Shown here piece by piece: positions 335 to 46,107 of a stretch of 64,000 bases of DNA (positions are counted from its first letter, which is position 1; each line of letters opens with the position of its first letter). The translations under genes and the position numbers were made by a program. Under the pieces are notes generated by a model. It ran no database searches. It saw only the letters and a list, made by a program, of their open reading frames with translations, and had not been told where the DNA came from. Source of the stretch: a bacterium (lineage in GTDB: Bacteria; Patescibacteriota; Dojkabacteria; GCA-016699595); contig CP064982.1 in NCBI GenBank assembly GCA_016699595.1, positions 203,647-267,646 on the forward strand. The letters run 5' to 3'.

Positions 335-415
335 TAGTCCAAAAGAGTATTGTTATAAAAATTGAGATGATGATAAGAGTTTGTTTGGACATAGGTTTAA
401 TAACAAAAACAAATT

Positions 416-1687: not shown

Positions 1688-1950
1688 GTTTATATGCTTG
1701 ACAATTTATTTAGTGCTTACTGATTAGTGTTTAGTGATAGTTTCAAAGTGTATAAAAATGTAAACTAACTTTTGTTCAAATAGTGTAACTCTTGTAAATT
1801 ATTTTATACAAATTATTAAGTATCAACAAATCTTTTGCTAAATTCATAATTAATTTGTGTAAATTGTCTTAAAGGATCACTTTTGAACTTCTTGGTTTGT
1901 CCATAAACAGGAAAAATTTGCTTCGTTGAGACAAACTAGCAACAAGTTTT

Positions 1951-2397: not shown

Positions 2398-2485
2398 ATA
2401 TTGATTTTACGAAAATTCTACTTTTACTGCAAATTATTACTATTAGAAAGTTTGTATGTGCTAAAATATTTTGATTATAAATTAT

Positions 2486-3172: not shown

Positions 3173-3244
3173 AGTGTGATTTATTCTTTCAAAATTTGCT
3201 GACAATATTGAAAAAATTTGTCGATATTATCAGCAAATGGTTTC

Positions 3245-5722: not shown

Positions 5723-5972
5723 AGCTTGTTAAATAAAGTAAATTGTTTGATAAATTGAATGTAAAATTACATCTAATTTTAATTTTATCATTATTTTTGA
5801 AGAATGGAAGTAAAAAACTAGCAATCACAAAGAAGCAGTGCTAATGCAAATTGTTTCAAATAAAATAATGGATTTAGCAAGTTAGCTTTACTATACAGTA
5901 AGCAATTTTCTTCAAAATCAAACTTTATAATTAAAGGTAAAGTGAATTGACAATAAATAGTTGTTACTCATT

Positions 5973-8384
5973 TTATCCAACTTGTGCTCCCAATTTTTCT
6001 ACAACTTCTTTTGTTATCAAGTCTACTATATTCTTATCTTCAGAAGTTGCTCTAACTGTAACAGCATGTTTGGTATCTTTATCAAATCTACTTACTTGAG
6101 ATACTTCAATGTCAAAAAAGTTATCTTTTATGAAGTCTACTAGCTCCTTTATCTGAAACCTGTCTCCTACTTCGAATGTTATGTCTTGTGAGATAGCTTC
6201 GGTACTGACTGGTTTGAAATTCAGATTATTCCGCTCACTATATTTCAGCATCTTTTCCAAATCCAATTCTGCAAGTCCAACTTCATTCAGTTTGAAATTC
6301 TCGCTAACTTGGGGGTTCACCAAACCAAAGTAACCTAGAATATCTTCTCCAATTCTTACAATTCCAGCTTGTGATGGATTGAAGATAAGTTGTATATCAT
6401 CCGTGTCTCCTAGTTCAGTAAAACTTACAATTTCATAATTGTCAGATATATTACTAATGTCCAAAACTTCTTGAACATAATGACTCAATTGCTCTAGTTT
6501 ATTTGTAGTTAGCAATCCAAGTTTCCAAGGTTGAGAAGGTATTCTTATTACTCCATTTGACTCGATCATAGAGTTTGTCACAATTCTTGTAAGTTCAAAG
6601 TAATTTATTTCTTCAAATCCAAACCTTCTCCTGTTGATACTTGCTTTTTCCAATAATGATGGTAAAAGTGTATCTCGTAATTTGTTGAGTTCCGGTGATA
6701 AAGGATTTAGAACTTGTATAAGGCTGTTTGAGTTCAGGTTGCTATTTTCCCAAAGATTATCATTTACAAATGTATAACTTAACATTTCATCAAAACTTTG
6801 TCCAATTAAGAAAGTTTTCAACTTCCTTTCCAGTTTTGATACATCGCTTGTTTTAACTGGAGTAGCATTTCGCTTTGGTATTGTTGGCTCTATCAAATTA
6901 TAACCATACAACCTCCCAATTTCTTCAAGTATATCCTCTTCAATGTTTATATCTCTTCGCCAAGTAGGAATAAGAAGTGTCACAAAGTTGGTATTCAAAA
7001 CTGGGTTGACTCCATCGACATTAACATATGCTGCGTGATCTGTGTTGATACCTAGTGATTTTAGCTTATTTATTGCCTCAGTTTTGTCCATACTAATACC
7101 AAGAAATCTCGATACTCTATTGAAGTCAAATTCCACGTACTTGTCACTCATCGGCTCTGGATAAATATCTATAATTTCAGATGCAACCTCTCCCCCTGCG
7201 ATATCTACTATCAAACTAGCAACTTCATTTATTGCTTGCACTGTAAGTTCTGGGTCAAGGCCCTTCTCAAAACGAGTTGATGCCTCTGATCTCAGTCCTA
7301 GAGTTCTACTTGTTCTTCGGATATTGAACATTTCAAAATTCGCAGCCTCAATTAGTATAGTTCTTGTTTCATTACTAATTTCTGAATCCATGCCACCCAT
7401 TATGCCAGCAATGCCAACTGGAGTATTTTCACCATCGCAAATCAACATCATTGATTCATTCAAATCTCTTCTAACATTATCTAATGTAAGAATGCTCTCA
7501 TCAAGATTTGCATCTCTTGCAATCAATTTATTTCCTTTGATTTTACTGTAATCATAAGCATGAATCGGTTGTCCTAAATCCATCATTACAAAGTTCGTAG
7601 CATCTACTATATTATTCACCGGTCTCATACCAACTGAAGCAAGTCTATCCATCAACCAAATTGGTGATGGCCCAACTCTGACACCTTTTATCACTATTCC
7701 TGAAAATCTTTTGCAATTATCTGTTTGTATTTCGATTTCCAAATCAAGATTTGTAGTTTTTGTAGGAAGCTTGTATTCAATTTCTGCAAAATTATCTAAT
7801 TCTAATATTGCATTGACTTCTCTAGCTATACCTTTTATCCCAAAACAATCGCCTCTATGTGTCAAACTTTTATTCTCAATTTCATAAACTATATCAGGGT
7901 TGAATTCGCCCTTGATGTCTTCGTCGGTAACTAATTCAGTACCTACAATTTCATTATTATTCAGTTCAAGTATACCATTATGCTCCGAACTAAGTCCAAG
8001 TTCTCGTTCAGAACAAATCATTCCTTGACTCTTGATTCCTGCAATCTCAGCTTCATCTATATCAAACTTCTCTCCAAATTCATTCAAGCAACTACCGCCT
8101 ACTTTGCAAACGACGACTTTCAAATTGCTTCTTACATTTGTGGCTCCACAAACAATGTCCACAGCTTCATTTCCAATGTCAACTTTGCAGATATGAAGCT
8201 TCTTTGACTTTGGATGTTCGCTAACTTCAAGTACTTCTCCAACAACAAGTTTGTTCAATTTATCATTTCTGAATGTAAATCCCTCAACTTCTGCAAGTTT
8301 TTGTGTTATTTGTGTTCTAAATTCTTCTGTGTCGTTAGTAAGTTTCGGGATATAAGTTTTTAACCAGTTATTTGAAATAAGCAT
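5973..8384 (-). CDS. pheT: phenylalanyl-tRNA synthetase beta subunit
   Basis: 803 aa with typical PheT N-terminus (MLISNNWLKTYIP) and B3/4, B5 and catalytic-like domains. Lies directly downstream of pheS. Confidence 0.9.
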   Translation of the reverse strand: MLISNNWLKTYIPKLTNDTEEFRTQITQKLAEVEGFTFRNDKLNKLVVGEVLEVSEHPKSKKLHICKVDIGNEAVDIVCGATNVRSNLKVVVCKVGGSCLNEFGEKFDIDEAEIAGIKSQGMICSERELGLSSEHNGILELNNNEIVGTELVTDEDIKGEFNPDIVYEIENKSLTHRGDCFGIKGIAREVNAILELDNFAEIEYKLPTKTTNLDLEIEIQTDNCKRFSGIVIKGVRVGPSPIWLMDRLASVGMRPVNNIVDATNFVMMDLGQPIHAYDYSKIKGNKLIARDANLDESILTLDNVRRDLNESMMLICDGENTPVGIAGIMGGMDSEISNETRTILIEAANFEMFNIRRTSRTLGLRSEASTRFEKGLDPELTVQAINEVASLIVDIAGGEVASEIIDIYPEPMSDKYVEFDFNRVSRFLGISMDKTEAINKLKSLGINTDHAAYVNVDGVNPVLNTNFVTLLIPTWRRDINIEEDILEEIGRLYGYNLIEPTIPKRNATPVKTSDVSKLERKLKTFLIGQSFDEMLSYTFVNDNLWENSNLNSNSLIQVLNPLSPELNKLRDTLLPSLLEKASINRRRFGFEEINYFELTRIVTNSMIESNGVIRIPSQPWKLGLLTTNKLEQLSHYVQEVLDISNISDNYEIVSFTELGDTDDIQLIFNPSQAGIVRIGEDILGYFGLVNPQVSENFKLNEVGLAELDLEKMLKYSERNNLNFKPVSTEAISQDITFEVGDRFQIKELVDFIKDNFFDIEVSQVSRFDKDTKHAVTVRATSEDKNIVDLITKEVVEKLGAQVG

Positions 8385-30905: not shown

Positions 30906-32765
30906 TTGAGCCTACTTGAGAAAAACGAACTAGATACTGCGAGTTATATCAAAATAGTTAGAAAATATAGTCGAGATGGAAATTCAACATTCAGCAAAGA
31001 TGACATATTGAAAGAAATTGATGTATTGCTAAGGGTAAAAGGTGAATATTGCTTCCTTGGGGAAGCTGGCGAGCGAAGCGAACCTGAAGGGGTTTTGAAA
31101 AACGAATTAGAATCTCTCAAATCTGCAATCAAACTCAAACCAATGCGAACTGAATCAGGAGTTACTACAGTTACGGTTCTGACTAAACCTTATGCTTGCC
31201 CTGGACAATGTATATTTTGTCCAAATGATGTTCGGATGCCAAAAAGTTATATCGCAACTGAACCTGGAGCTCAAAGAGCTCTGATGTTCAGGTTTTCTCC
31301 ATACGCTCAAGTTTGGAATAGACTTAAAGCTTTGCAAAATATAGGTCATCCAACCGACAAAGTCGAAATGCTTGTACTTGGTGGAACTTGGACGAGTTAT
31401 AAAGAAGATTATAAACTATGGTTTACTTACAATCTTTTCAAGGCTATGAATGATTTTGGAGATGGAATTTGTGATGAGAGGTTAATGACAAAGCAAGATA
31501 TAAGTGAGATATTTGAAAATGATTTTAATGATGATATTAGGAAAAATTACTCCTTCACATGGGAAGGTGTCCAGCAAAGCAGGACAGAAGGGGTTAACTC
31601 TTTAATTGATAAAAGTAAAACTAATTTTATTGAATACAACAAACTTCTCCAAACTCAAGAATTTAAGGCGTGGGAAAAAGAAAATGTTGTTGCAGGAGAT
31701 TTTATGAATTCTCCTACATGGGAAATTTTGTTTGAAGAACAAAATCGAAATTCGAAAGGTAAATGTAGATGCGTGGGTTTAGTTTTTGAAACTAGACCAG
31801 ATAGAATTACACAAAAAGAAGTTTTGACTTTACGAAAACTTGGTGCTACAAAAGTTCAACTAGGAATTCAGATCCTAAATGATGAAATTTCAAGTTTGAA
31901 TAAACGAGGTGAGAATATTGAAGATGCTATGAAAGCTTTTGAATTACTTCGACTTTGGGGCTTTAAAATTCATGTTCATATGATGCCAAATTTACTTGGT
32001 GCAACTCCAAAGCTAGACTTGGAAAGTTATAAGTTACTCGTTAATGATCCTCACTTTCTTCCAGATGAAATAAAAATTTACCCAACAAGTTTGATTGCAA
32101 ATACTGAACTTGAGAATGAGTATAAAGCCGGAAACTGGAGACCTTATGAAACTCAAGAATTGGTTGAATTAATCGCTCAAATGATTGCAGAAACTCCAGA
32201 ATATGTAAGGTTAACTCGTATTATTCGAGATATACCAAGTCAAGAAATTGAAGCTGGAAATAAACTTACTAACTTAAGACAAGTCGTTGAGAAGTATATG
32301 CAAGATAATGATATGCAAGATCAAAATATCAGAGCAAGAGAAATTAAACAGGAAAAAGTAACTTTTGTCGATTTGGAATTGAAAATAGTTGAATATCAAA
32401 CTACAATTTCAAAAGAATTGTTTTTGGAATATGTAAAGCCCCCATTGAAAAAGGGGGGCAAGGGGGATTTTATTGCTGGGTTTTTAAGATTGAGTTTGCC
32501 TATTGATAATATTTCTGCCATGATTCGAGAAATTCATGTTTATGGTCCAAGTTTGGAAATTAGCAAAGATAGTTCTGGCGATGCTCAGCATCTTGGACTT
32601 GGGACTAAGTTGATTGAAAAAGCAAAAAAAATTGCGAAAGATTTGGGTTATAATAGCTTGAAAGTAATTTCAGCGATTGGAACTAGAGAATATTATGCCA
32701 AAAGAGGTTTTGAAATGACGGAAGATGGACTTTATCAATTGACAAAACTAAAAGTTAATTTCTAA
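30906..32765 (+). CDS. elp3: Elp3 family tRNA uridine(34) carboxymethyl-modification enzyme (radical-SAM domain plus C-terminal GNAT/KAT domain)
   Basis: Radical-SAM CxxxCxxC in ACPGQCIFCP, the Elp3 core (LVLGGTWTSY, FETRPDRIT), and a C-terminal GNAT fold (HLGLGTKLIEKAKKIA...YYAKRGFE). The TTG start is uncertain. Confidence 0.8.
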   Translation: MSLLEKNELDTASYIKIVRKYSRDGNSTFSKDDILKEIDVLLRVKGEYCFLGEAGERSEPEGVLKNELESLKSAIKLKPMRTESGVTTVTVLTKPYACPGQCIFCPNDVRMPKSYIATEPGAQRALMFRFSPYAQVWNRLKALQNIGHPTDKVEMLVLGGTWTSYKEDYKLWFTYNLFKAMNDFGDGICDERLMTKQDISEIFENDFNDDIRKNYSFTWEGVQQSRTEGVNSLIDKSKTNFIEYNKLLQTQEFKAWEKENVVAGDFMNSPTWEILFEEQNRNSKGKCRCVGLVFETRPDRITQKEVLTLRKLGATKVQLGIQILNDEISSLNKRGENIEDAMKAFELLRLWGFKIHVHMMPNLLGATPKLDLESYKLLVNDPHFLPDEIKIYPTSLIANTELENEYKAGNWRPYETQELVELIAQMIAETPEYVRLTRIIRDIPSQEIEAGNKLTNLRQVVEKYMQDNDMQDQNIRAREIKQEKVTFVDLELKIVEYQTTISKELFLEYVKPPLKKGGKGDFIAGFLRLSLPIDNISAMIREIHVYGPSLEISKDSSGDAQHLGLGTKLIEKAKKIAKDLGYNSLKVISAIGTREYYAKRGFEMTEDGLYQLTKLKVNF

Positions 32766-33599
32766 CCTATCAATTGGACTTTGAATTTTCCTTTTATGAG
32801 CATCAGTAATATGTGTATATATTTGTGTAGTTTTTATATTTTTATGACCCAATAACTCCTGAACCACCCGGATATCTATACCATTTTCTATCAAATGCGT
32901 TGCAAAGCAGTGCCTAAGAGTATGAACGCTCGCAGGCTTATTTACTTCGGAACTCAATAATGCATTTTTAAAAACTTCTTGTACACTTCTTACATTATAC
33001 ATTTCACCACTTCTTCCCTCAAAAATATATTTCTTAGGTTGATATTTTACATAATACTTTCGAAGCAATAATAAGATGTTCGAAGATAACATAACTTCTC
33101 TATCTCTATTACCTTTCCCTCCACGAATCAATATTGTCATCCTTTTGGAATCAATATCCGCTATTTCCATCTTCACTAGTTCTGATACTCGTAATCCTGC
33201 ACTATAAATCAGGGAAACTATTGCCCGATGTTTTATATTTTTGATGCTTTGTATGATCTTCTTGATATCTTCCTCTGATAAAACAAATGGCAATTTATAA
33301 ACTCGTCTATCTGGATAAATATAATCAATTTGAATTTCCAGTTTAAGTACATATTTATAAAATAATTTTATTGAGCTAATGATACCCTTCTGTGCAGACT
33401 GAGAAATATTCTGTTCATTAATTTTGTAGCAAATATATTGTAATACGTCACTTTCGGAAATGCTATTAATTTCTTTGTTTGCAAAATATTTGAGGAAGTC
33501 TTTGATATAGGAAGAATAAGCACGAATAGTATTTGGCGAGTATCTCTTTACCTTCAATATTTCGATGAACTTCGTGATTAGTGACTCTGGCGGATTCAT
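32748..33599 (-). CDS. tyrosine-type site-specific recombinase / phage integrase family
   Basis: Catalytic tail HTLRHCFATHL...LLGHKNIKTTQIYTH (R..H..R...Y). Its 3' end overlaps the elp3 stop by 18 nt. Confidence 0.85.
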   Translation of the reverse strand: MNPPESLITKFIEILKVKRYSPNTIRAYSSYIKDFLKYFANKEINSISESDVLQYICYKINEQNISQSAQKGIISSIKLFYKYVLKLEIQIDYIYPDRRVYKLPFVLSEEDIKKIIQSIKNIKHRAIVSLIYSAGLRVSELVKMEIADIDSKRMTILIRGGKGNRDREVMLSSNILLLLRKYYVKYQPKKYIFEGRSGEMYNVRSVQEVFKNALLSSEVNKPASVHTLRHCFATHLIENGIDIRVVQELLGHKNIKTTQIYTHITDAHKRKIQSPIDRLEINF

Positions 33600-33729
33600 A
33601 ATACACTATTATAGCAAAAATATTAGTGTATAATCTAGTAAAGTTCGTATAACCTAGTGTTATATGACATATTTTGATGGCAATAAAAAACGAAGGTTTT
33701 AAAAACTTTTATTAAGATACAATATTATT

Positions 33730-34419
33730 ATGAAAACAGTAGGAATAATTGGAGGTCTTGGACCAGAAACAACATCGGAATTTTACCTAGATGTAGTTTT
33801 TTCGTGCCAGAAAAAAGACAAAACTCATAGGCCTTCAATCATAATCGCCAGCGTCCCTTTGCCATACAAAATTGAAGAAGAAGCTATTGCTAAAAACATT
33901 GGATTTGAAAGAATACCTCCTTTTTTAATTGAAGAGGCAAAAAGACTAGAAAAAGCTGGTGCTGATTTTATTGTTATGCCGTGTAATTCTTTGCATGTTT
34001 TTATCAAAGAGATCAGGGACGCTGTCGATACTCCTGTTTTAAGTATCGTGGAAGAAACGGTAAAATTCCTCAAGAGAAATAATTTGAATAAAGTAGGCAT
34101 TGTTTCTACTTCTGCGACGATTAAGAATAAATTATACGAGAATGCCTTCGCTGAGAATAAAATTGGTTACGAAACTCCAGACGATTTTCAACAAGCGAAA
34201 ATGGGTAAATTTATTCTTAATCTTGTTACTGGAATGCAGAATAACAGAGATAGAGATGAACTTATTCAAATTATTTCTGATTTTGAAAAGAAAAATGTTG
34301 ATTGTGTCGTGTTGGCATGCACAGACCTCCAATTATTAATCCCTCAACATCCATCCTTAAAGATATTCGACACAATGAAAATATTTGCCGATGCAACTGT
34401 TGAGGAATTATTAAAATAA
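33730..34419 (+). CDS. aspartate/glutamate racemase family protein
   Basis: GIIGGLGPETT (GG[LM]GP), PCNSLH and VLACTDL (the two catalytic Cys regions). Confidence 0.7.
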   Translation: MKTVGIIGGLGPETTSEFYLDVVFSCQKKDKTHRPSIIIASVPLPYKIEEEAIAKNIGFERIPPFLIEEAKRLEKAGADFIVMPCNSLHVFIKEIRDAVDTPVLSIVEETVKFLKRNNLNKVGIVSTSATIKNKLYENAFAENKIGYETPDDFQQAKMGKFILNLVTGMQNNRDRDELIQIISDFEKKNVDCVVLACTDLQLLIPQHPSLKIFDTMKIFADATVEELLK

Positions 34420-34449
34420 AAGTTTTTAAAATTATTATAAAATTGCCAT

Positions 34450-34625
34450 CAAAATACGCTAAAGCCCCACTGCGCTCTCGCTTCACTGCGTTACGCTCGG
34501 GTCATATAACACAGTATATGCGGTGAGAGCCTTGCAGGCTCTCACCCATATTCCGCTACAATTTTTAAAATGATAAAATAATGGTGTAGCGGAACATCGC
34601 ATATACTGGAACGTTAGGCGAAATA
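34450..34625 (+). repeat. GC-rich structured repeat R1, copy a (contains a perfect 10-bp hairpin GGTGAGAGCC/GGCTCTCACC)
   Basis: Shares ordered blocks with copy b at ~36860-37015: GCCCCRCTGCGCTCTC, then RTATAACACAGTRTATGCGGT, then a GC hairpin, then ACCCATATT, then ...AACGTTA. Local GC is about 50% against a ~30% background. Confidence 0.6.
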
Positions 34626-34653
34626 ATTCAAAATTAATTTAAAACTTTTTACT

Positions 34654-35166
34654 ATGAAACATACTTTATTATTCTTAATCACTATAACAATTATGAGTAT
34701 CTTTTTATCAGGCTGTAATAACAATTCGACGCAGAAAAATGAAGTTGATATTGTTTATCAAGCAATTAACATGATATCTTCCAATAATAATCTAGTTAAT
34801 AAAACTCCTTCTGAACTGTATGAATTATTAAATTTAAGTAAAGATATTTACAAAATTACCACACACTCGCATTCAGAAAATTATCAAAATTTACAAATAT
34901 CAGTAATTGATAAAAAGATTGGTGCATATGATTTAGCGAAAAAGATGAATATATCTAACGCTAATGCATATGAAGTGAATGCAGAACATTCGATATGGGT
35001 TATTGGAAGTAAAAATGAACCATTTGAATCATATAATGGATTAAATATCGATATTCATATTACCTATCCAAGTAAAAATTCAATTAAGGGTAGTTCATAT
35101 TCTGGAAATACAGGAAGCCTCAAAAATACATATATTGATTACATATACATAAATATACCAGAATAA
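34654..35166 (+). CDS. lipoprotein (lipobox LSGC), unknown function
   Basis: N-terminus MKHTLLFLITITIMSIFLSGCNNNS is a SPase II signal with Cys+1. Confidence 0.6.
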   Translation: MKHTLLFLITITIMSIFLSGCNNNSTQKNEVDIVYQAINMISSNNNLVNKTPSELYELLNLSKDIYKITTHSHSENYQNLQISVIDKKIGAYDLAKKMNISNANAYEVNAEHSIWVIGSKNEPFESYNGLNIDIHITYPSKNSIKGSSYSGNTGSLKNTYIDYIYINIPE

Positions 35167-35534
35167 AAATTAATTTTGAATTACATCGCCTAACACTGAG
35201 TATCCGGTTCCACAAAATGGACTCAATAATAAAGATAAAGACTGTCCATTTTGTTCCACCCAAGTTTTTTGCCAACAAATATGCTGAAACTGAATGTCTT
35301 CCAGTAAATAAACAAAAGTGCTAGGATACACGTAAATACTGAGAAATCCGGCAAAAAACTTCCGATACTCAGAAACGTTATACGCAATTCAAAAAATATT
35401 TTTCTTATAGTAAGGAATTTTGACAGACTTTTAAAAAGAGGAATAAATTTGTTTTTTTATTTATGCTGATGGGGATAGCGGTATTTTCTCCGCTATCGCT
35501 CCGAAAATGGTTTATAATTTAACTAAACATAATT

Positions 35535-36737
35535 ATGGGATTTGAAGATTACACTCCACCAATAGATGATATTAAAACTGGCATACAACCAGAAGTAACA
35601 GAAAGTGGTCCTAAACCACCAGTTTTGTCATTCAAAAGGAATAGTGATATTCACTTTGAAAGGTTTGGACAAACTTTTACATACGACAGTATTGCCCTTT
35701 ATCAAGAGGAAGGAAATCTGGTTACTCTTGATAGTTTGGAAAAGCTACCTCCTTCCGTTTTGCTTCAAACTGTTCTGAATATTTCTCAAATGATTGAATT
35801 ACAACAAGATATTAAGGCTTTTTCTGAAGGTGGGCTTGATATTGATGCGGCAGTAGAAAATGGCGAAGAAGTTTTAGCAATGCAATTTCAAGATATTAGA
35901 AAAGTTTTAGATGATTTGGCTTTTACCCAACAATTTTCAAAAGATGATCTTACCAAAATGCTTGACTATGTTTATGGAACCGGAAAGCCCAAGCCTTTCA
36001 CTGAAGGATTATCGTCAGTACTTTTCGCCTCTGCTTTAGCATTTCAGAGAGAACTACTTTATTCAGCCATGGAATCTCGAAAAATGAGTTTAGAAGAAGC
36101 ATCGGGAATCATTAGGAAACTTCCTTACGGAGGAACATTTTTGCTTGAGGGTGAACCAACGCTTAATGAGCTCTCGCAATTTTTTACTCAAACTGAAGAC
36201 GAAGCTGAAAAGAACTTAGTCGTAGATCAGCAAGGAAGGTATTTTTTAGTCCAAGGAATGAGCAAAGATACTGGTGTTATAACATATAGAAGTTTCCCTG
36301 ATTTGGTTGCAGATTATCATACGCACAGAATTGATTACCCTTTTTCCGCAGGAGATATTGGCGCTTATAAAGCTTTAGGTGACTCCAGAGATATTTATTC
36401 AATTACTTCTGACGAAGTAAGATTTTTCGTATGTAGTCCCAGTGGAATTTTTGAATTTGAAGGAAATTTGGAAGAAAATGTCTTTGATAAGCAGGACAGA
36501 AAAAATGATAGTGTAATGATTCCTTGCACTGTCATAAATGAAGATACAGGAGAACAAGCAAGTTTTGATGTTTATACTAATCATGCAATAGGAGAATCCG
36601 GTAGATTTATACAAGAACAAATGGAGAAAAAACCTAGACGACTAAGAATTGAACTTGAGAATGGTGATATTATTCGTTTTACTTCATGGGAGGAATTAAA
36701 GAGAGGTGATAAATTAAATTCAGATAATCATGAATAA
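35535..36737 (+). CDS. hypothetical protein (400 aa) with a possible JAMM-like HxH...SxxD motif
   Basis: Clean ATG ORF with acidic composition. YHTHRIDYPFSAGD resembles the JAMM metal site, but the spacing is one residue short. A GC hairpin (GATAGCGG...CCGCTATC) lies just upstream at ~35470-35495. Confidence 0.5.
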   Translation: MGFEDYTPPIDDIKTGIQPEVTESGPKPPVLSFKRNSDIHFERFGQTFTYDSIALYQEEGNLVTLDSLEKLPPSVLLQTVLNISQMIELQQDIKAFSEGGLDIDAAVENGEEVLAMQFQDIRKVLDDLAFTQQFSKDDLTKMLDYVYGTGKPKPFTEGLSSVLFASALAFQRELLYSAMESRKMSLEEASGIIRKLPYGGTFLLEGEPTLNELSQFFTQTEDEAEKNLVVDQQGRYFLVQGMSKDTGVITYRSFPDLVADYHTHRIDYPFSAGDIGAYKALGDSRDIYSITSDEVRFFVCSPSGIFEFEGNLEENVFDKQDRKNDSVMIPCTVINEDTGEQASFDVYTNHAIGESGRFIQEQMEKKPRRLRIELENGDIIRFTSWEELKRGDKLNSDNHE

Positions 36738-36859
36738 ATAAGGAGTTTTGGTTTTTTGGCATTCACCCCTAACCCCTCCGCCCAAAATCCAAAACAAAAA
36801 ACAAATTTATGATTATTGAATAAAAAGCCTGTCAAAATGAAATTGAATGAAAAATATTT

Positions 36860-37015
36860 TTTGAACTCGCTCCTTTCAGTCGCGCCCCGCTGCGCTCTCC
36901 TCCCTTCGGTCGTCGGGGCGTATAACACAGTGTATGCGGTTCGGGGTTCGGCTCGCCCCTTACCCATATTTTTGCTCCCGTTGGTCGCAACTTCTCATAT
37001 CCGCAAACGTTATAT
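36860..37015 (+). repeat. GC-rich structured repeat R1, copy b
   Basis: See copy a; same orientation, about 2.4 kb downstream. Partial related fragments are at ~35178-35200 and ~35355-35385. Confidence 0.6.
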
Positions 37016-37089
37016 ATAATTTGAATCAGGAATAAAAAGAAAATAATGTGAAGGTAAAAATTTATATAGATTGCTAATTCATCAATATT

Positions 37090-37987
37090 ATGGACAAAAA
37101 AATCATAAATCATTACTTACAATTCGGCACATTTACTAACCCGGGCTGTTACAAAGAATTTCTTCAAAATCTTCCAGATGATGTCAAAGAACTGGGCAAT
37201 TTAATCAGTCATCAAGTTATTCATCGCGTTACACTCAAAGAAGGCAACACAAAATCTAACAGGGATTTACGATATGGGGATATGAAAAGATATCCTTGGC
37301 ATAGATTGAGATGTGAAGATGATATTTTGCCTACTACCGTTTCAATGATTGCAGAATTATTAAGATTTGATGACCGAGGGTTTTTGCCCGACAGAAAAGT
37401 TGAAAATAAAATTGTTGTCACCTGTCGTTTTGTGGCAATACTTATGGCTTCAATTTTAAAGTCAAAAGGTGTCCCTTGCAGAGTCCGTTCGGGATTTGCC
37501 CCCTATTTTTCAAAGGCAGTTGGGATCATTGGATAAATCAATACTGGGATAAAGATAAACAAAAATGGATTACTTTTGACGCTGATGGATTTTTTGACAG
37601 TACTATTGGTTTTGACCAGTATGATATGCCTGCGAAAAAGTTGATTGGGCAGCAGATACATGGCTCGGAATAAGAGGGGGCAAACTAGATGCCAACAACT
37701 TTAGAAATGCAGATGGTTCTGTTGGACTTATGCCAGTTCTTTGGGCAATATTTTATGATTTTCATAGTTTAATGAATAACGAAATTCTTTATAATCAAAT
37801 GCCTAGTTATATCTATTTCAAATTTGATAAATTGACTGAAAAAGATTTTGAAGAAATTGATGAATTAGCCAAATTGATGTTAGAACCAGATAAAAACTTT
37901 CATGAATTAGTCAAAATTTGGAATACAAAAAAGAAATTCAGAACTTTGAATGGTCCACTTATTAGTGATAGTGATCATTTTAAATAG
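37090..37987 (+). pseudogene. transglutaminase-like cysteine protease domain protein disrupted by two frameshifts at homopolymer runs
   Basis: The core Cys (VTCRFVAIL), His (GSWDHW) and Asp (FDADG) are split across three frames. Breaks are at the T5 run (~37506) and the A5 run (~37634), and the reading frame continues into ORF 37730..37987. Confidence 0.6.
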
Positions 37988-38172
37988 AAATAAATTTTAA
38001 GTACCTACTTACTACTTATGAAAAATTACAAAACATTGATGCTATATTATTTGACATGATGGGTGTTCTGCTTTTTCAAAGAAAAGATTATATCCCGAAC
38101 AAACTTGTTGATGAAATAGATTCTAAGATTGGAGATGTAACAAATGACGATATTTTCAAGCAAGAAACTGTG

Positions 38173-38270
38173 CAAGAATTTGGGTTATAATAGCTTGAAA
38201 GTAATCTCAGCAATCGGAACTTGAGAATACTAGGTTTTGAAATGACGGAAGATGGGATGTATCAGATTGT
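38173..38270 (+). repeat. degenerate duplicate (~85% identity, 12-bp deletion) of the elp3 3' end (32634-32745); attR-like island boundary
   Basis: TTTGGGTTATAATAGCTTGAAAGTAAT[C/T]TCAGC...GTTTTGAAATGACGGAAGATGG is shared with the elp3 C-terminal coding sequence. Confidence 0.75.
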
Positions 38271-38322
38271 AAATATTCAAACATGTTTTGTAATTACTAA
38301 CATAAATTGGTATAATATCATT

Positions 38323-38670
38323 ATGAAAAAGACATTTATTACATTTTTAAGTGCATTACTAATATTTCTTCTAATTACAATTGTTTATCTTTTTGTCCAA
38401 AATTACTTTCAAGGTGATTTGAGAATTTCTGGATTGGTTCAATATCATAAGGCTGATCTCACGATATCTGCAGACGCACCAGAAGGATACTTTATTGAAT
38501 CTTCTGCAATAGGTAGAATTTATCTCCGTTATGGAAAGAACGAAAATCTAGCAGAGCTATTGGATAAAAACATTGTTGCTAAAGGATTGATGAGCAATCG
38601 ACTTTTGTGTGGTAATGATGGAGGATTATGTTATCCGGTTGTCAAGATAGAAATGGTTGAAGTGAAGTAG
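38323..38670 (+). CDS. small secreted/membrane-anchored protein, unknown
   Basis: Starts MKKTFITFLSALLIFLLITIVYLFV (signal anchor). The upstream part of track ORF 38221.. is translated elp3-duplicate sequence and is unlikely to be coding. Confidence 0.4.
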   Translation: MKKTFITFLSALLIFLLITIVYLFVQNYFQGDLRISGLVQYHKADLTISADAPEGYFIESSAIGRIYLRYGKNENLAELLDKNIVAKGLMSNRLLCGNDGGLCYPVVKIEMVEVK

Positions 38671-38785
38671 AGTCTATAAATAATGATTGTTTGGCAGGAT
38701 TTGTATGGTTTGGATTTACTTTCTACAAGTACTTTGTTTCTTATTGTATTGAACTAGGGTTGTAATGATCTCTCATATCAGTAAT

Positions 38786-38860
38786 TCTGACGTAGGTCCT
38801 TTCAATTTTATAAAACGCAATGGCTAAACCTAACAAAAACTTTAAGGAAGTCAATCTGGA
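38786..38860 (+). repeat. R2 repeat copy a
   Basis: CTGACGTAGGTCnTTTCAATTTTA(T)AAAACGCAATGGCTAAACCnAAnAAAAACTTTAAGGAAGTC recurs at 40465-40540. Confidence 0.6.
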
Positions 38861-39000
38861 AGAGTATGAAAGAAGACATTCCTACAATAAATCATATATA
38901 CACACATATGAAAAATACGCAACTTACCTATCTTTGTATTTTGCAGTATCTTTAGGTGTCATAGGTTACATCTTTTTTTGATAAAGATATAGGAGCATTC

Positions 39001-40110
39001 TTGAAAAATCTCAATCAATTTACACTTGATACACAATGGTTATACTTTACAATTTTTCTTTTTTTTGCAATTCTTATGTATTATTTATTGTCATGCTTAC
39101 TTAGTAAATTAGAATCAATATATATAAATGCAACAAGAATAAACATTTTAGAAAAAAGTTGTAACAAAATGTTTGGTCCGGATTTCATAGCTTATGAAGT
39201 GATGAAACCACGATACTTTATTTCAATTTTGGTTATTTTCATGGGTTCTATTTACTCACTTTTACTTAGTTTTTTATGTTTCATATTAGCAAACGACTTA
39301 GTATATTTTTTTGTGCTATTTACATTTTTGTTCTCAGTTTTAATACCTTATCGGTTTTATATAGTTAATACAGCTCTTATAAAAACAAATATTCGTAATG
39401 AATACGAGTTGTCTTTATCTAATAATGTGCAAGACATCTTTAAAGTAAACAAGCTAATTTTTGCACCTATTCTAACCTTGATGTTTGGAATAGTTAGTTT
39501 CTTTGTTTTGTCTTTAAAAGACGGTTCATTTTTAACGAATTCAAAAGTAGACTATCCACTGCTAGCTGTGCCAACAATATATATAGGCGATTTAATCCTG
39601 TTACCGTTAATAAACTATAGCACAGCTAAACTAGTGTTTGAATATAAAGAGTTTATTAAGAAATTCTTTAAGCAGTGGCGTTTTAAGGCTGTCTTGTTTT
39701 TATCACTTTGCATAGCAACTTTCTTTAATATTAAAACGCATAAAGTATGGGAAGGTGATAATTTCAATGGATTTATAGATATGAATCAAAAGTTAACAAC
39801 TGCAGGTCAAATTCACCTGGTTTTCAGTATAATAAATATGTTTGTAATTCTTTTTATTATTCTAATATCGATTTATGCATATTTGAACAAGTACAAAGTA
39901 ATATTTAATAAAACGATTGATATTTGGAAATACCTAATTGCTTTCTCAAGTTTATCAATTTTGGATTTCTTATATAGATATTATTTTATGAATTTCAACA
40001 ATGAGGCCTTTGGTCTGTTTTTGAAAAGTAACTCAATATCATTTTTACTATTGTATTTTAGTTTGGCAGTATTTTTAACTTTGAAAATACTTCAAAAAAG
40101 AATACGGTAA
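39001..40110 (+). CDS. polytopic membrane protein (369 aa), unknown
   Basis: About 9-10 hydrophobic helices, TTG start, bracketed by the two R2 copies. Confidence 0.5.
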   Translation: MKNLNQFTLDTQWLYFTIFLFFAILMYYLLSCLLSKLESIYINATRINILEKSCNKMFGPDFIAYEVMKPRYFISILVIFMGSIYSLLLSFLCFILANDLVYFFVLFTFLFSVLIPYRFYIVNTALIKTNIRNEYELSLSNNVQDIFKVNKLIFAPILTLMFGIVSFFVLSLKDGSFLTNSKVDYPLLAVPTIYIGDLILLPLINYSTAKLVFEYKEFIKKFFKQWRFKAVLFLSLCIATFFNIKTHKVWEGDNFNGFIDMNQKLTTAGQIHLVFSIINMFVILFIILISIYAYLNKYKVIFNKTIDIWKYLIAFSSLSILDFLYRYYFMNFNNEAFGLFLKSNSISFLLLYFSLAVFLTLKILQKRIR

Positions 40111-40464
40111 GAAGATGTTTTTAAAGTACGCCTAAAAACTTCTATTGAACTTTACTGCTAAAAGCATATTGGATTGTCAAGTCAATGTTGCGTTATTTTA
40201 AATTTGGCTAATGCACAAATTGTTATAAGTTTGAAATAAAGATTAGCAGTTTAGTATAGGATATATAAACAATATCCCTACTCCATTCTAACTTTCAAAC
40301 CCTCAATCTCACCTACTATTCTTCGCGATTCGAGGTTGTATACAACTAACTTTGAGTTATTCGGTCTTCCTTGAAAGCCATCTATTCTAGCATTCTCAAA
40401 ATCATGTATGTCTTTGAGTTCATACTTTTCTAGAAAAAGAAACAAACCATCTTCTCCTGACGTA

Positions 40465-40540
40465 GGTCATTTCAATTTTAAAAACGCAATGGCTAAACCC
40501 AATAAAAACTTTAAGGAAGTCTTTGATACACGAGAAATAA
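40465..40540 (+). repeat. R2 repeat copy b
   Basis: See copy a. It runs directly into the integrase remnant. Confidence 0.6.
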
Positions 40541-40700
40541 GCACGAATAGTATTTGGCGAGTATCTCTTTACCTTCAATATTTCGATGAACTTCGTGATT
40601 AGTGATTCTGACAGATTTATAATTAATACACTATAAATAGCAAAAATATTAGTGTATAATGTAGCAAAGTTCGTATAACCTAGTGTTGTCCGAAATTCTC
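40528..40700 (-). pseudogene. remnant of a tyrosine integrase gene: 5' ~90 bp of coding sequence plus upstream region, about 90% identical to 33494-33690, with the start codon mutated
   Basis: AAGCACGAATAGTATTTGGCGAGTATCTCTTTACCTTCAATATTTCGATGAACTTCGTGATTAGTGA and the promoter-region block TAGCAAAAATATTAGTGTATAAT...AGTTCGTATAACCTAGTGTT are duplicated. The CAT (ATG) at the start position is now TAT. Confidence 0.7.
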
Positions 40701-40779
40701 TTTTGTGAAATAGTTTTAATAAGGAAAATTTTTTGGAACTTTTTATTTTTAATTTAATAATTTTTTAACAAATACTACT

Positions 40780-41388
40780 ATGGAAAACTCCAACGAACAG
40801 TCGCAAGGACAGACCATAAAGTGTCCTTCGTGCAAAGAAGCTATTCAGCTTGGCGCAAAGAAATGCAAACATTGTGGCGCAGATTTGAGAAATTGGTTTG
40901 TTAGGCACAAAGTCATAACTGGTATACTGATTATTATTGGAATTGGAATTATTGGAAGCGCTATGGGTGGCAATGAAACAAAAAATACTTCTGACAGCTC
41001 GTCCACCACTAACAATGTACAAGAGGCTAAGTCTACTGCAGATGTAAAAGCTGAAGCAGACACTAAAGTAGCAGAAAGCGTGCCAGCTGAATATAAATCT
41101 GCTTTGAGCCAAGCAGAAACTTATGCCAACACAATGCACTTGTCAAAGCAGGGCGTCTACGATCAGCTTGTTTCAGAGTATGGTGGAAAGTTTCCAAAAG
41201 AAGCCGCACAATATGCAATTGATAATGTAAAAGCTGATTGGAACGCAAATGCGCTTTCTCAAGCAAAAACTTACCGAGATACTATGCACTTATCGACAGC
41301 AGCAGTTCGTGACCAGCTCATTTCAGAATATGGAGCAAAGTTTACAAAAGTAGAGGCAGACTATGCCATTCAGCATCTCAATGATTAG
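40780..41388 (+). CDS. Ltp-like protein: N-terminal zinc ribbon (CPSC...CKHC), TM helix, and two tandem host-cell-surface-exposed-lipoprotein (HcsEL) type repeats
   Basis: The repeats ALSQAETYANTMHLSKQGVYDQLVSEYGGKFPKEAAQYAIDN and ALSQAKTYRDTMHLSTAAVRDQLISEYGAKFTKVEADYAIQH resemble the phage TP-J34 Ltp superinfection-exclusion repeat family. GC is about 40%. Confidence 0.55.
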   Translation: MENSNEQSQGQTIKCPSCKEAIQLGAKKCKHCGADLRNWFVRHKVITGILIIIGIGIIGSAMGGNETKNTSDSSSTTNNVQEAKSTADVKAEADTKVAESVPAEYKSALSQAETYANTMHLSKQGVYDQLVSEYGGKFPKEAAQYAIDNVKADWNANALSQAKTYRDTMHLSTAAVRDQLISEYGAKFTKVEADYAIQHLND

Positions 41389-41529
41389 TGTGTCTATTGT
41401 TTTTCCATGGAGTTAAAAAATGCGAATTGAGATAAAAAGTGCCAAAAAATTATCTTTTATAATTTCACAAAAGAGAACTCAAGGGGACGTTGCGCTTTTG
41501 ATTTCTCTTTTTAGATTTTAAAGCTAAGG

Positions 41530-41680
41530 AAAGAAATCAAACCCTCGGACAACACCGAATAAACGGAAAATGCCTCGGCTCGGCATTTTCGCAAATTCGT
41601 TTTCACTAAGTTTCAAACGAACTTCGTTTATTCGGAAACGTTGTCCGACATATTTTTCTGAAAATTTTTACAAGAAAGTT
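41530..41680. other. structured inverted-repeat region between convergent genes (nested hairpins; possible bidirectional terminator or small RNA)
   Basis: Outer arms CGGACAAC..GAATAAACG / CGTTTATTCGGAAACGTTGTCCG. Inner 9-bp hairpin GAAAATGCC/GGCATTTTC and a second hairpin TTCGTTT/AAACGAA. Confidence 0.4.
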
Positions 41681-45976: not shown

Positions 45977-46057
45977 ATACCGAGGACAGGACTTGAACCT
46001 GCATGCCTTTCGGCGCTTGCTCCTAAGGCAAGTGCGTCTACCATTTCGCCACCTCGG
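45977..46057 (-). tRNA. tRNA-Leu (anticodon UAG) with a long variable arm
   Basis: Minus strand: GCCGAGG-TG-GCGAAATGGTAGACGC-A-CTTGC CTTAGGA GCAAG-C-GCCGAAAGGCATGC-AGGTTCAAGTCCTGTCCTCGGTA. Cloverleaf with a 7-nt anticodon loop CU-UAG-GA. Local GC is elevated. Confidence 0.8.
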
Positions 46058-46107
46058 CAATATATACAATAATATACACTACTTAACATTTGATCGTGTA
46101 GATGAAT

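What the first reader, a model, noticed from the sequence alone, without database searches (positions are those of the whole stretch)
32634..38275. Integrated mobile island at the 3' end of elp3: integrase, duplicated elp3 3' end (attL/attR-like) and cargo
A tyrosine integrase (32748..33599) overlaps the elp3 stop. About 100 bp of the elp3 3' coding end (32634-32745) recurs as a degraded copy at 38173-38270 (~85% identity, 12-bp deletion). That is the classic footprint of an element that integrates into the 3' end of a gene and regenerates it. The ~5.6 kb between the two copies carries an Asp/Glu racemase, a lipoprotein, a 400-aa unknown protein, structured GC-rich repeats and a frameshifted transglutaminase-like gene. 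Integration into a tRNA-modification gene (elp3) rather than a tRNA gene is unusual.
Basis: partly seen in the sequence, partly recalled or inferred. Interest (0 to 1): 0.75.

Follow-up and report, generated by a model that had tools for sequence, protein, structure and literature searches.

The report
Integron-like cassette platform beside elp3
Next to the elp3 gene of an uncultured, tiny-genome (CPR-type) bacterium sits a gene-capture platform built like an integron but run by a short Xer-like recombinase that lacks the domain used to define integron integrases. The duplicated elp3 end is debris from a second, decayed copy of that platform, not the scar of an island insertion.

Summary
The repeat is real: 32620-32777 recurs at 38158-38310 (blastn E 3e-23). 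The gap is 10 nt, not 12. The island reading does not hold.

The integrase (32748-33599, minus) faces an attI site (TTCGTATAAC-CTAGT-G|TT, 33644-33661). Three one-gene cassettes follow. Each ends in a 100-200 nt imperfect palindrome (R''-L''...L'-R') and each begins with the reverse complement of its own R''.

Relatives carrying identical integrases differ by exact whole-cassette insertions at G|TT. Cassette 3 of the window recurs in another metagenome behind a different attC, with homology starting at G|TT.

The integrase is Xer/IntI-like and lacks about 43 residues, the IntI-specific I2 domain.

The elp3 fragment also carries about 30 nt of the integrase 3' end. Downstream lie a truncated integrase 5' end, a second attI (40504-40687) and one more cassette. 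So a decayed second copy of the elp3'-int-attI module sits here. How the module came to be present twice is unresolved.

No description of such I2-less platforms in CPR bacteria was found in the library searched.

The parts
30906..32765 (+). elp3 (radical SAM/GNAT tRNA U34 modification enzyme). The last 4 codons (KVNF) extend beyond the family's usual C-terminus and overlap the integrase 3' end.
   Evidence: NCBIfam TIGR01211 443 bits, cutoff 350. Relatives end at YQ(I/V)xxL*.
32620..32777 (+). Copy A of the duplicated segment: elp3 3' end plus the last ~10 codons of int on the opposite strand.
32748..33599 (-). int_A, a 283-aa Xer/IntI-like tyrosine recombinase. The catalytic R-K-H-R-H-Y set is intact and the IntI I2/additional domain is absent.
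   Evidence: Pfam PF00589 1.9e-43 with no insertion, plus SAM_4. NF040815 233 bits (cutoff 220). TIGR02249 219.7 (<265) in two stretches. Against VchIntIA 2a3v, query 181-204 spans IntI4 179-245. AF2 model pLDDT 88.6 shows only a beta-hairpin between helices 173-186 and 203-217. Foldseek top hits are XerA 5hxy and IntI 2a3v.
33627..33634 (+). TGTATAAT, an extended -10-like motif pointing into the array (candidate Pc). It is conserved in copy B at 40653-40660.
   Evidence: Read directly from the sequence. The generic promoter scan is not enriched in this AT-rich DNA, so this is an inference.
33644..33661 (+). attI_A: TTCGTATAAC-CTAGT-G|TT, with the crossover at G33659|T33660.
   Evidence: Copies A and B are 49/51 identical up to GTT and 18/50 after it. 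The same architecture and break point occur in relatives.
33660..34613 (+). Cassette 1: amino-acid racemase (33730-34419) plus attC1 (R'' 34501-34510, L'' 34512-34523, L' 34597-34608, GAAC, G34613).
   Evidence: TIGR00035 160 bits. Cassette start GTTATATGAC is the reverse complement of R'', 10/10, unique in the window. Fold z -7.5 top, -8.7 bottom.
34614..35377 (+). Cassette 2: 170-aa lipoprotein-like ORF (34654-35166) plus attC2 (R'' 35185-35194, L'' 35196-35204, L' 35364-35372, AAAC, G35377).
   Evidence: Fold z -5.1.
35378..37009 (+). Cassette 3: 400-aa ORF of unknown function (35535-36737) plus attC3 (R'' 36917-36926 ... G37009). attC3 is homologous to attC1 but its L' has mutated and no longer pairs.
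   Evidence: Fold z +0.2 to +0.3. The same cassette, 88% identical, lies in JGI contig L023 behind a different attC, with homology starting at 35375, two bases before the crossover G (35377).
37010..38149 (+). Decayed DNA distal to the array: a transglutaminase-like gene broken into 3 ORFs (37090-37987) and a short fragment with a HAD-like DxD motif (38020-38149).
   Evidence: ORFs. Transglut_core E 0.037. The HAD-like reading is by eye only, with no Pfam support.
38150..38310 (+). Copy B of the duplicated segment: an elp3 3' pseudogene fragment (in-frame TGA, 10-nt deletion) running into a ~30-nt remnant of an integrase 3' end.
38311..40503 (+). A 2.2-kb block occupying the place of the interior of int_B: membrane ORF M1 (38323-38670), a 53-aa ORF (38820-38981), and a 369-aa multi-pass membrane ORF M2 (39001-40110). 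The 66-nt stretch 38787-38852 is repeated at 40457-40521.
   Evidence: No Pfam, NCBIfam or PADLOC hits.
40457..40620 (-). Truncated int_B: its first 39 codons (40504-40620, 106/117 nt identical to int_A) are fused to the 66-nt patch at an 8-nt microhomology (AGGAAGTC).
   Evidence: tblastn 84.6% over 39 aa, E 1e-14..
40670..40687 (+). attI_B: TTCGTATAAC-CTAGT-G|TT, with the crossover at G40685.
40686..41640 (+). Cassette 5: zinc-ribbon plus 2x Ltp surface-lipoprotein-domain protein (40780-41388) plus attC4 (R'' 41544-41553, L'' 41555-41566, L' 41624-41635, AAAC, G41640).
   Evidence: PF07553 8.7e-44. Cassette start is the reverse complement of R'', 9/9. Fold z -6.7 top, -8.3 bottom.

Best explanation
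The region is a chromosomal, integron-like gene-cassette platform. It is not a phage-like island integrated into elp3.

Anatomy. A 283-aa Xer/IntI-type tyrosine recombinase (int_A) is transcribed away from an adjacent attI site (TTCGTATAAC-CTAGT-G|TT). Downstream of attI lie three single-gene cassettes, all in the same orientation. Each ends in a 100-200 nt imperfect palindrome with this layout: R''(..YAAC) - 1 nt - L''(9-12 nt) ... L' - 4 nt - G|TT.

Proposed mechanism. A cassette is excised as a circle by recombination between the G|TT of two neighbouring sites. This reconstitutes its R' box, because the first 9-10 nt of every cassette are the reverse complement of its own R''. The palindrome folds as a hairpin that presents R and L boxes separated by an asymmetric internal loop. 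The recombinase then exchanges strands between this site and attI at G|TT, so new cassettes enter next to the promoter-proximal end. By analogy with integrons and with CTX-phage/XerC, a single-strand exchange resolved by replication is the likeliest chemistry.

Shown: the site architecture, covariation of the stems, the G|TT break point, exact whole-cassette gain and loss in relatives, reuse of the window's cassette 3 elsewhere, and the absence of the IntI I2 domain.

Inferred: that int_A is the catalyst, that the substrate is single-stranded, and which strand is used.

The elp3 repeat. A second, decayed copy of the module [elp3 3' end - int - attI] lies downstream. It comprises the elp3 fragment plus an int 3' remnant (38150-38310), a 2.2-kb replacement, the int 5' 39 codons, and attI_B with one further cassette (40457-41640). 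The elp3 repeat is therefore the left edge of that copy, not an attR. How the module came to be present twice is not resolved. The candidates are a tandem duplication, or homology-anchored illegitimate recombination with DNA from a ~9% diverged relative.
For: Window:
- Every cassette start is the reverse complement of its own R'' (10/10, 9/9, 9/9, 9/9), and these matches are unique in 64 kb.
- AACGTT occurs 5 times in the window and 4 of them are these site ends.
- attC1, attC2 and attC4 fold with z from -5.1 to -8.7.
- attI_A and attI_B are 49/51 identical up to GTT and 18/50 after it.

Family:
- Seven well-formed sites from the window and relatives share one architecture.
- L box: 63/63 cells paired, with compensatory changes at 8 of 9 positions. 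R box: 67/70 paired, 6 of 10 positions covarying. With arms swapped between sites the means are 30.5 and 44.5.

Mobility:
- Contigs with the identical integrase P0004 differ by exact cassettes, with flanks 100% identical. L004 = L003 plus 1147 bp at attI. L005 = L003 minus its first cassette.
- L009 = L011 plus 547 bp.
- Three different first cassettes occur at the P0002-type attI.
- The window's cassette 3 is 88% identical to JGI contig L023, with homology starting at 35375, just 5' of the crossover G (35377), behind a different attC.

Enzyme.

Second copy.
Against: - There is no direct evidence of recombination in this genome. No close relative of this lineage exists in the collections (best integrase 65%, best Elp3 55%), so cassette polymorphism at this particular attI could not be shown.
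- The arrays are short (3 + 1 cassettes) and attC3 is decayed.
- The integrase lacks the domain held to be essential for attC recognition (PMC4889954, PMC7790495).
- The R/L spacing differs from canonical attC sites.
- A canonical IntI elsewhere in the 762-kb genome cannot be excluded. Only 64 kb were visible, and tblastn finds none there.
- Double-strand recombination at the L'-R' half-site is not excluded.
- The event that produced two module copies is unresolved. The expected second copy of the distal flank for a simple tandem duplication was not found.
Confidence: 0.75

Rival explanations
1. A 5.6-kb island integrated by its own integrase into the 3' end of elp3 and regenerated the gene. 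The two elp3 copies are attL and attR.
For: A significant direct repeat brackets the integrase and foreign-looking genes. The integrase abuts the left copy. There are 28-nt and 24-nt identical blocks inside the repeat. Distant Elp3 relatives have no integrase downstream of elp3.
Against: The right copy includes a remnant of the integrase 3' end, so the duplicated unit contained the integrase itself. A truncated integrase 5' end plus attI at the same divergence lies outside the proposed island. The enzyme's crossover site in relatives is attI on its 5' side. The enzyme is a simple recombinase with no arm-binding domain. The 'cargo' resolves into independent cassettes, one of which is found elsewhere on its own.
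Confidence: 0.07
2. The recombinase is the cell's chromosome-dimer resolvase, a single-Xer system like archaeal XerA, XerS/difSL or XerH/difH. 'attI' is then dif, and the cassettes are small IMEX-type elements that hijack it, as CTX phage does with XerC.
For: The best curated family match is XerA (NF040815, 233 bits, above the cutoff of 220). The best structural match is XerA. The I2 domain is absent. The gene sits next to its site, as in XerS/difSL (my own knowledge). CPR 'Cand' recombinases have been suggested to stand in for Xer (PMC8138268). Relatives at ~45% identity on Flavobacteriia plasmids sit in typical plasmid-maintenance contexts.
Against: The right arm of the site differs with every first cassette, which is unlike a dif site with two conserved arms. 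There are two attI copies in direct orientation 7 kb apart. There is no GC-skew or gene-orientation switch at the locus: both flanks have negative skew and minus-strand genes. The platform sits next to different core genes in different lineages: tsaD/tRNA in some, elp3 here.
Confidence: 0.12
3. The palindromes are ordinary intergenic repeats (REP- or MITE-like elements, or terminators), and the recombinase is unrelated to them. The region is just a variable, decaying chromosomal segment.
For: AT-rich genomes carry many hairpins. attC3 is degenerate. In the window's cassettes the stems extend 30-95 nt and bracket each ORF like terminal inverted repeats.
Against: The sites occur only downstream of attI and only in one orientation. 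Cassette indels in relatives are exact at G|TT, immediately next to the recombinase gene. The stems covary across unrelated sequences. The same organisation follows the same recombinase family across CPR lineages and a Flavobacterium.
Confidence: 0.03

Closest known systems
Integrons (IntI / attI / attC cassette arrays; e.g. class 1 integrons, Vibrio and Xanthomonas chromosomal integrons)
   Same: The recombinase gene is divergent from an adjacent attI. One-gene cassettes all lie in one orientation. The crossover is at G|TT. Cassette-end sites are built as R''(..AAC)-L''...L'-R'(GTT..), with structure conserved but not sequence. The first bases of a cassette complement its own R''. Strains differ by whole cassettes, with new ones next to attI. 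The platform is sedentary and lies beside a housekeeping gene.
   Different: The integrase lacks the ~35-43-residue additional (I2) domain and fails the curated IntI thresholds (TIGR02249 219.7 < 265; NF011946 150 < 435). The R box is 9-10 bp. The R and L boxes are separated by an asymmetric 1-2 nt / 4-5 nt loop rather than the canonical unpaired spacer plus single extrahelical bases (canonical geometry from my own knowledge and PMC4889954). In this window the stems extend to bracket each ORF. The host is a CPR bacterium.
Xer-type chromosome-dimer resolvases: archaeal XerA/dif, and the single-recombinase systems XerS/difSL and XerH/difH
   Same: Size, two-domain fold, catalytic residues, the best HMM and structure matches, absence of I2, and a site adjacent to the gene.
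   Different: The site has one conserved arm and a variable second arm, is followed by cassettes, is present twice, and does not lie at a skew switch.
IMEX elements such as CTX phage, whose folded single-stranded attP hairpin is recombined with dif by XerC with one strand exchange (my own knowledge: Val et al. 2005)
   Same: It shows that an I2-less Xer recombinase can join a folded ssDNA hairpin to a double-stranded chromosomal site. This is the step the present system would need.
   Different: Those are whole phage genomes using the host's housekeeping Xer at dif. Here, single genes stack up in an array at a dedicated site next to a dedicated recombinase gene.
Gene-3'-end-targeting genomic islands and the rulB 'integron-like elements' of Pseudomonas (PMC4542609)
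   Same: A tyrosine recombinase and cargo lie next to a housekeeping gene whose reading frame is kept open.
   Different: Those elements carry three recombinases, make a 3-bp direct repeat and move as one unit. Here the repeat is a 160-nt piece of a duplicated module, and the cargo consists of separate cassettes.

Membership tests
Integron (as defined by IntegronFinder, Cury et al. 2016, PMC4889954) | The integrase carries the IntI-specific additional domain (~35 residues, I2 helix) near patch III. | tested here: not met
   Query 181-204 spans IntI4 179-245 in the 2a3v alignment. TIGR02249 is matched in two stretches at 219.7 bits, below the 265 cutoff. NF011946 scores 150, below 435. The AF2 model has no helix between 186 and 203. 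The whole family is 264-299 aa.
Integron | An attI site lies next to the integrase gene and is where cassettes are inserted. | tested here: met
   A conserved sequence runs up to G|TT and is then followed by different cassettes, both in the window's two copies and in public contigs with identical integrases.
Integron | attC sites are imperfect palindromes R''-L''/L'-R' with conserved AAC...GTT, with structure conserved more than sequence. | tested here: met
Integron | Canonical attC geometry: a 7-bp R box, a ~5-nt unpaired central spacer on both arms, and single extrahelical G and T bases. | tested here: not met
   The R box is 9-10 bp. The internal loop is 1-2 nt on one arm and 4-5 nt on the other. 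The L box is perfectly paired. No attC covariance model was available to score the sites.
Integron | Cassettes are discrete mobile units: the same cassette occurs in different arrays, and arrays show whole-cassette gain and loss. | tested here: met
   Relatives. Window cassette 3 vs L023.
Integron | A Pc promoter in the platform reads into the array. | tested here: inconclusive
   TGTATAAT lies at 33627-33634 and is conserved in copy B, but the promoter scan is not above background in this AT-rich DNA.
Integron | The integrase recombines the folded bottom strand of attC with attI, with replicative resolution. | not testable with these tools
   This needs recombination assays. Only the fold propensity of both strands was computed.
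Xer/dif dimer-resolution system | The recombinase passes a curated Xer model. | tested here: met
   NF040815 recomb_XerA_Arch scores 233 bits against a cutoff of 220. XerC and XerD models are not passed (202 < 335; 199.5 < 330).
Xer/dif dimer-resolution system | A single site with two conserved arms lies at the replication terminus. | tested here: not met
   The right arm is variable. There are two copies. There is no skew or orientation switch within the 64 kb. The whole genome was not visible.
Site-specific integrative island (attL/attR in a gene's 3' end) | Direct repeats of the target flank the element, and the repeat is target sequence only. | tested here: not met
   The repeat is present, but it continues into the integrase's own 3' end. 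A matching integrase 5' end plus attI lies beyond the right repeat.
Site-specific integrative island (attL/attR in a gene's 3' end) | An empty site exists in close relatives, or an excised circle can be detected. | tested here: inconclusive
   Only distant relatives exist (Elp3 <= 55%). They lack an integrase after elp3. A 24-mer scan of metagenomes found nothing. No reads were available.

The most novel reading that the evidence does not exclude
This may be one member of a distinct, widespread lineage of integron-type gene-capture platforms, found in several CPR/Patescibacteria lineages and at least one Flavobacterium. In this lineage, hairpin-bounded cassettes are recombined at an attI by a XerA/IntI-like recombinase that never had, or has lost, the I2 domain. 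If so, folded-site cassette capture does not require the domain that currently defines integron integrases. Such platforms would also be invisible to searches that require intI_Cterm. The lineage could be a surviving intermediate between Xer and IntI, or an independent invention.
Probability: 0.45. Interest if true: 0.85.

Novelty: new variant of a known kind. Interest (0 to 1): 0.75.

Why it matters
1. It would extend integron-style gene capture to CPR bacteria. These are reduced-genome episymbionts whose routes of gene acquisition are poorly known. It also shows population-level cassette turnover in them.

2. The field identifies integrons by the IntI-specific domain. [quoted passage not shown] The I2 helix is presented as the innovation that enabled single-strand recombination (PMC7790495). 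A working cassette platform without it would challenge both views. It would also give an experimentally tractable system for asking how Xer-type enzymes came to use folded substrates.

3. Practically, such platforms would not be called integrons by detection pipelines that require the IntI-specific domain, so the cassette reservoir may be underestimated.

4. For this scan, it replaces an attractive but wrong island story with a testable anatomy.

Tried and rejected
- Empty-site test through elp3. The genome-contig scan gave one locus at 43% identity. The 5.8-billion-protein search gave nothing closer than 55%. Contexts L001 and L017 keep the methyltransferase-elp3 pair but share nothing downstream. 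They are too distant to be decisive.
- Exact-protein look-ups. Look-ups of the integrase, racemase, M2 and the Ltp protein found no contigs. The elp3 look-up gave only a 9.4-kb Logan contig that breaks inside the int 5' repeat.
- Metagenome scan for the 24-mer shared by both elp3 copies: no hit.
- dif hypothesis. It was considered because of the XerA match. It was set aside because of the variable right arm, the two copies and the absence of a skew switch.
- Simple tandem duplication of the module plus array. No second copy of the distal flank was found after attC4, so the origin of the two copies stays open.
- attC3 as a hybrid of two attCs. Rejected, because attC3 aligns along its whole length with attC1 and differs by point changes in L' and a shorter loop.
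- Other checks. The promoter/terminator scan was not informative in AT-rich DNA. PADLOC found no defence-system hit apart from a marginal LmuB match. Rfam found only tRNA-Leu at 45978-46058. Plasmid relatives at ~45% identity look like ordinary plasmid recombinases and say little about this subfamily.
- Literature. Eight searches found no description of integrons or integron-like arrays in CPR/Patescibacteria, nor of I2-less integron integrases with arrays. The library is incomplete, so prior description cannot be excluded.

Full report
OBSERVATION

The elp3 3' end is duplicated, and the duplication is far beyond chance.
- Ungapped blocks: 32641-32695 = 38178-38232 (50/55) and 32705-32737 = 38232-38264 (30/33).
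- Best gapped alignment: 32620-32777 vs 38158-38310, 74.7% over 166 columns, blastn E 2.7e-23.
- Local score 70 against 13.1 +/- 1.9 for shuffles.
- The internal gap is 10 nt, not 12.
- The distal copy has an in-frame stop.

WHAT THE REGION IS

The repeat search turned up a second, unreported duplication. The first 117 nt of the integrase gene plus 60 nt upstream of it (33483-33670) recur at 40504-40696 at ~91% identity. This lies outside the proposed island.

Reading the intergenic DNA showed a regular pattern.
- Just upstream of the integrase start lies TTCGTATAAC-CTAGT-GTT (33644-33661).
- The two copies of this region are 49/51 identical up to GTT and 18/50 after it.
- From that point on, every ORF is followed by a long imperfect palindrome. 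Its layout is R''(..YAAC) - A - L''(9-12 nt) ... L' - (G/A)AAC - GTT.
- The hexamer AACGTT occurs five times in the 64 kb, and four of them are the ends of these sites.
- The first 9-10 nt after each GTT boundary are the reverse complement of the R'' box that follows the next ORF: GTTATATGAC/GTCATATAAC, GTTAGGCGA/TCGCCTAAC, GTTATACGC/GCGTATAAC, GTTGTCCGA/TCGGACAAC. Each of these 9-10-nt matches occurs only once in the window.

That is the signature of integron cassettes. A cassette cut out at G|TT and circularised rebuilds its own R'/R'' box.
- attC1, attC2 and attC4 fold far better than shuffles (z -5.1 to -8.7).
- attC3 is homologous to attC1 along its length, but its L' has mutated and it no longer folds.

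The "structured GC-rich repeats" of the finding are therefore attC-like sites. The "cargo" consists of three cassettes: racemase, lipoprotein-like ORF, and 400-aa unknown. A fourth cassette (zinc ribbon + 2x Ltp domain, PF07553 8.7e-44) sits behind the second attI.

EVIDENCE FROM ELSEWHERE

Family and hosts. The integrase is identical to a protein on a 761,814-bp MAG contig labelled only "bacterium". Its nearest relatives (58-65% identity, ~277 aa) are from Nomurabacteria, Pacebacteria and Dojkabacteria. Bacteroidota homologues follow at ~50-53%.

Cassette turnover in relatives. Contigs that encode the very same integrase protein differ in the genes next to it.
- The sequence upstream of the gene is conserved up to ...GTG|TT and then switches.
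- Walking from each start to its R'', L'', L' and next GTT reproduces the window's architecture.
- The differences are exact cassette indels with 100% identical flanks. L004 = L003 plus 1147 bp at attI. L005 = L003 minus its first cassette. L009 = L011 plus 547 bp.
- A pattern scan of JGI metagenomes added a third first-cassette at the Nomurabacteria-type attI, and another lineage.

Covariation. Across seven well-formed sites:
- L box: paired in 63/63 cells, with compensatory changes at 8 of 9 positions.
- R box: paired in 67/70 cells, with covariation at 6 of 10 positions.
- Swapping arms between sites gives means of 30.5 and 44.5.
- One caveat applies: L' was located by searching for a complement. 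However, its distance from GTT is fixed at 4-5 nt.

The window's own cassette 3. Its 400-aa protein has only ten homologues among 5.8 billion proteins, all on short contigs. The 88%-identical copy in JGI contig L023 aligns from window position 35375, two bases before the crossover G (35377). In L023 it is preceded by a different attC, with L box GTCCGCGTTT/AAACGCGGAC. So this cassette is a discrete unit that has sat in different arrays.

Bacteroidota. A Flavobacterium homologue (Avrilella, L016) also faces a run of small divergent ORFs. It has an attI-like site and at least one R''/L''/L' site.

THE ENZYME

- Pfam sees an N-terminal SAM-like domain and a catalytic domain with no insertion.
- The only curated model passed is XerA ("site-specific tyrosine recombinase/integron integrase", 233 bits against a cutoff of 220).
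- The integron-integrase model TIGR02249 is matched in two pieces and falls short (219.7 < 265).
- Against the VchIntIA structure 2a3v, residues 12-181 align to 10-179 and residues 204-279 align to 245-320. About 43 residues of IntI are therefore missing, which is the I2/additional domain. The C-terminal SP-x-D-x-L tail aligns to the very end of IntI.
- A confident model (pLDDT 88.6) has only a beta-hairpin where I2 would be.
- XerA and VchIntIA are the top structural matches, at similar E-values.
- The catalytic R, K, H-x-x-R, H and Y residues are invariant or nearly so (H226 >=90%) in the family.

THE elp3 REPEAT EXPLAINED

The distal copy does not stop at the elp3 stop codon. It continues for about 30 nt that match the antisense of the integrase's last codons. 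At that fixed position, only 0.4% of random window segments score as well.
- Elp3 relatives end at YQ(I/V)xxL*.
- Both window copies lack a stop there.
- The live gene ends four codons later, inside the integrase overlap.
- So the common ancestor of both copies already had elp3 abutting the integrase.

Further on comes a 2.2-kb block with three ORFs. It is followed by the first 39 codons of an integrase (106/117 nt identical), fused at an 8-nt microhomology to a 66-nt patch copied from 38787-38852. Then come attI_B, cassette 5 and attC4.

Copy B is thus a gutted duplicate of the whole [elp3 3' end - int - attI] module, about 9% diverged in all of its parts. The elp3 fragment is its left edge.

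I could not determine how the module came to be present twice.
- A tandem duplication predicts a second copy of the distal flank, which I did not find.
- Homology-anchored illegitimate recombination with DNA from a ~9% diverged relative fits the equal divergence and the pseudogene debris at 37010-38149.
- Both remain inference.

MECHANISM, WITH STATUS

Shown:
- the platform anatomy;
- G|TT as the switch point;
- stem covariation;
- whole-cassette gain and loss next to attI;
- reuse of cassette 3 in another array.

Inferred:
- int_A is the catalyst, since it is the only tyrosine recombinase detectable in the window;
- cassettes leave as circles and enter at attI;
- the palindrome acts as a folded single strand with one strand exchange and replicative resolution, as in integrons (PMC3458562) and as XerC does with the CTX phage hairpin (my own knowledge);
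- the constant 1-2 nt versus 4-5 nt internal loop between the R and L boxes plays the strand-marking role of the canonical extrahelical bases.

The strand used cannot be told from the sequence.

RIVALS

- The island model is contradicted by the integrase remnant in the right repeat, the second int-attI outside the island, the type of enzyme and the modular cargo (confidence 0.07).
- A housekeeping Xer/dif with IMEX-like hitch-hikers fits the XerA match and the lack of I2. It does not fit the variable right arm, the two copies, the absence of a skew or orientation switch or the different chromosomal neighbours in different lineages (0.12). A dual role is not excluded.
- Ordinary intergenic palindromes are excluded by orientation, position, exact indels and covariation (0.03).

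COMPARISON AND NOVELTY

It works like an integron and meets the attI, attC-palindrome and cassette-mobility criteria. It fails the criterion that defines IntI, and it fails the canonical attC geometry. I therefore do not file it as an integron in the strict sense.
- Escudero and colleagues present I2 as the innovation for single-strand recombination (PMC7790495).
- Smyshlyaev et al. note a Xer-related "Cand" group in candidate phyla, and note that the IntI insertion is "not fully conserved" in their integron-like subgroup (PMC8138268).
- Eight literature searches found no description of cassette arrays run by such enzymes, nor of integrons in CPR. The library is incomplete.

I rate it a new variant of a known kind.

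DEAD ENDS

No close relative of this lineage exists in any collection, so there is no true empty-site test. Exact-protein look-ups mostly failed. The promoter scan, PADLOC and Rfam added nothing.

Noticed in passing
L025 2055-2170 and 3646-3761 (5S rRNA), 3854-4153 (23S 3' end); also L024: A 56%-identical homologue (P0249) of the window's cassette-3 protein is not in a cassette array there. It sits between two copies of the 5S rRNA gene next to the 3' end of 23S, with about 330 nt of 5S plus spacer plus 23S tail duplicated on both sides. This protein family may belong to a self-mobile element in other CPR genomes.
   Followed up: partly
window 33670-33713/34415-34456; 34613-34640/35167-35194; 35388-35482/36765-36865; 40696-40769/41412-41477: In all four window cassettes the R-box stem continues as long inverted repeats that bracket the ORF, with scores of 27-37 against ~11 +/- 2 for shuffles in three of them. 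This also occurs in L009 cassette 1, but not in the Pacebacteria-type arrays. The function is unknown.
   Followed up: partly
window 34457-34500 and 36873-36917; L011 array end: A GC-rich ~45-nt block lies immediately 5' of R'' in attC1 and attC3 (~75% alike) in a 30% GC genome. The attC3 loop motif TCGGCTCGCCCCTTACCCATATTT recurs in an attC of a Nomurabacteria contig, so attC families are shared across lineages.
   Followed up: no
L016, array direction (reverse complement of 1-8000), positions 129-255 and 1412-1538: In the Avrilella (Flavobacteriia) locus a 127-nt GC-rich, hairpin-rich block is present twice. Each copy lies directly after a G| crossover and directly before a G|TT cassette start. 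It may be an ORF-less mini-cassette.
   Followed up: partly
L003 ~11040 onward, L004 ~9000 onward, L005 ~3250 onward: Contigs with the identical integrase share ~200 nt downstream of it and then diverge at the 3' end of a tRNA gene. L004 and L005 carry different inserts with large serine recombinases. These are separate tRNA-targeting islands next to the cassette platform.
   Followed up: no
window 38787-38852 vs 40457-40521; junction at ~40513-40521: A 66-nt stretch (upstream region plus the first 11 codons of a 53-aa ORF) is copied 1670 nt downstream and fused to the truncated integrase at the 8-nt microhomology AGGAAGTC. This is the signature of illegitimate recombination.
   Followed up: partly
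L003, L004, L005 attC sites (L box, pair 5): Three different attC sites of the Pacebacteria-type array keep a T.G wobble at the same L-box position on the top strand, which is an A.C mismatch on the bottom strand. It may be a recognition feature.
   Followed up: no
window 35535-36737 (protein residues ~270-285): The cassette-3 protein contains HTHRIDYPFSAGD, which by eye resembles a JAMM/MPN metalloprotease motif (H-x-H-x6-S-x2-D). No Pfam, NCBIfam or PADLOC hit supports it.
   Followed up: no
L030 (Flagellimonas marinaquae plasmid NZ_CP092416.1) 4032-6804: A 45%-identical 'xerA / integron integrase' on a mobilizable plasmid lies directly after erm(F) and near a dihydrofolate-reductase-family gene and a Tn3 transposase. 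I did not check for att sites.
   Followed up: no
L002 (Logan SRR11674035 contig), end = window ~33544: The only other public contig with the identical elp3 stops inside the duplicated integrase 5' segment. This is as expected if the repeat or array heterogeneity breaks short-read assembly.
   Followed up: no
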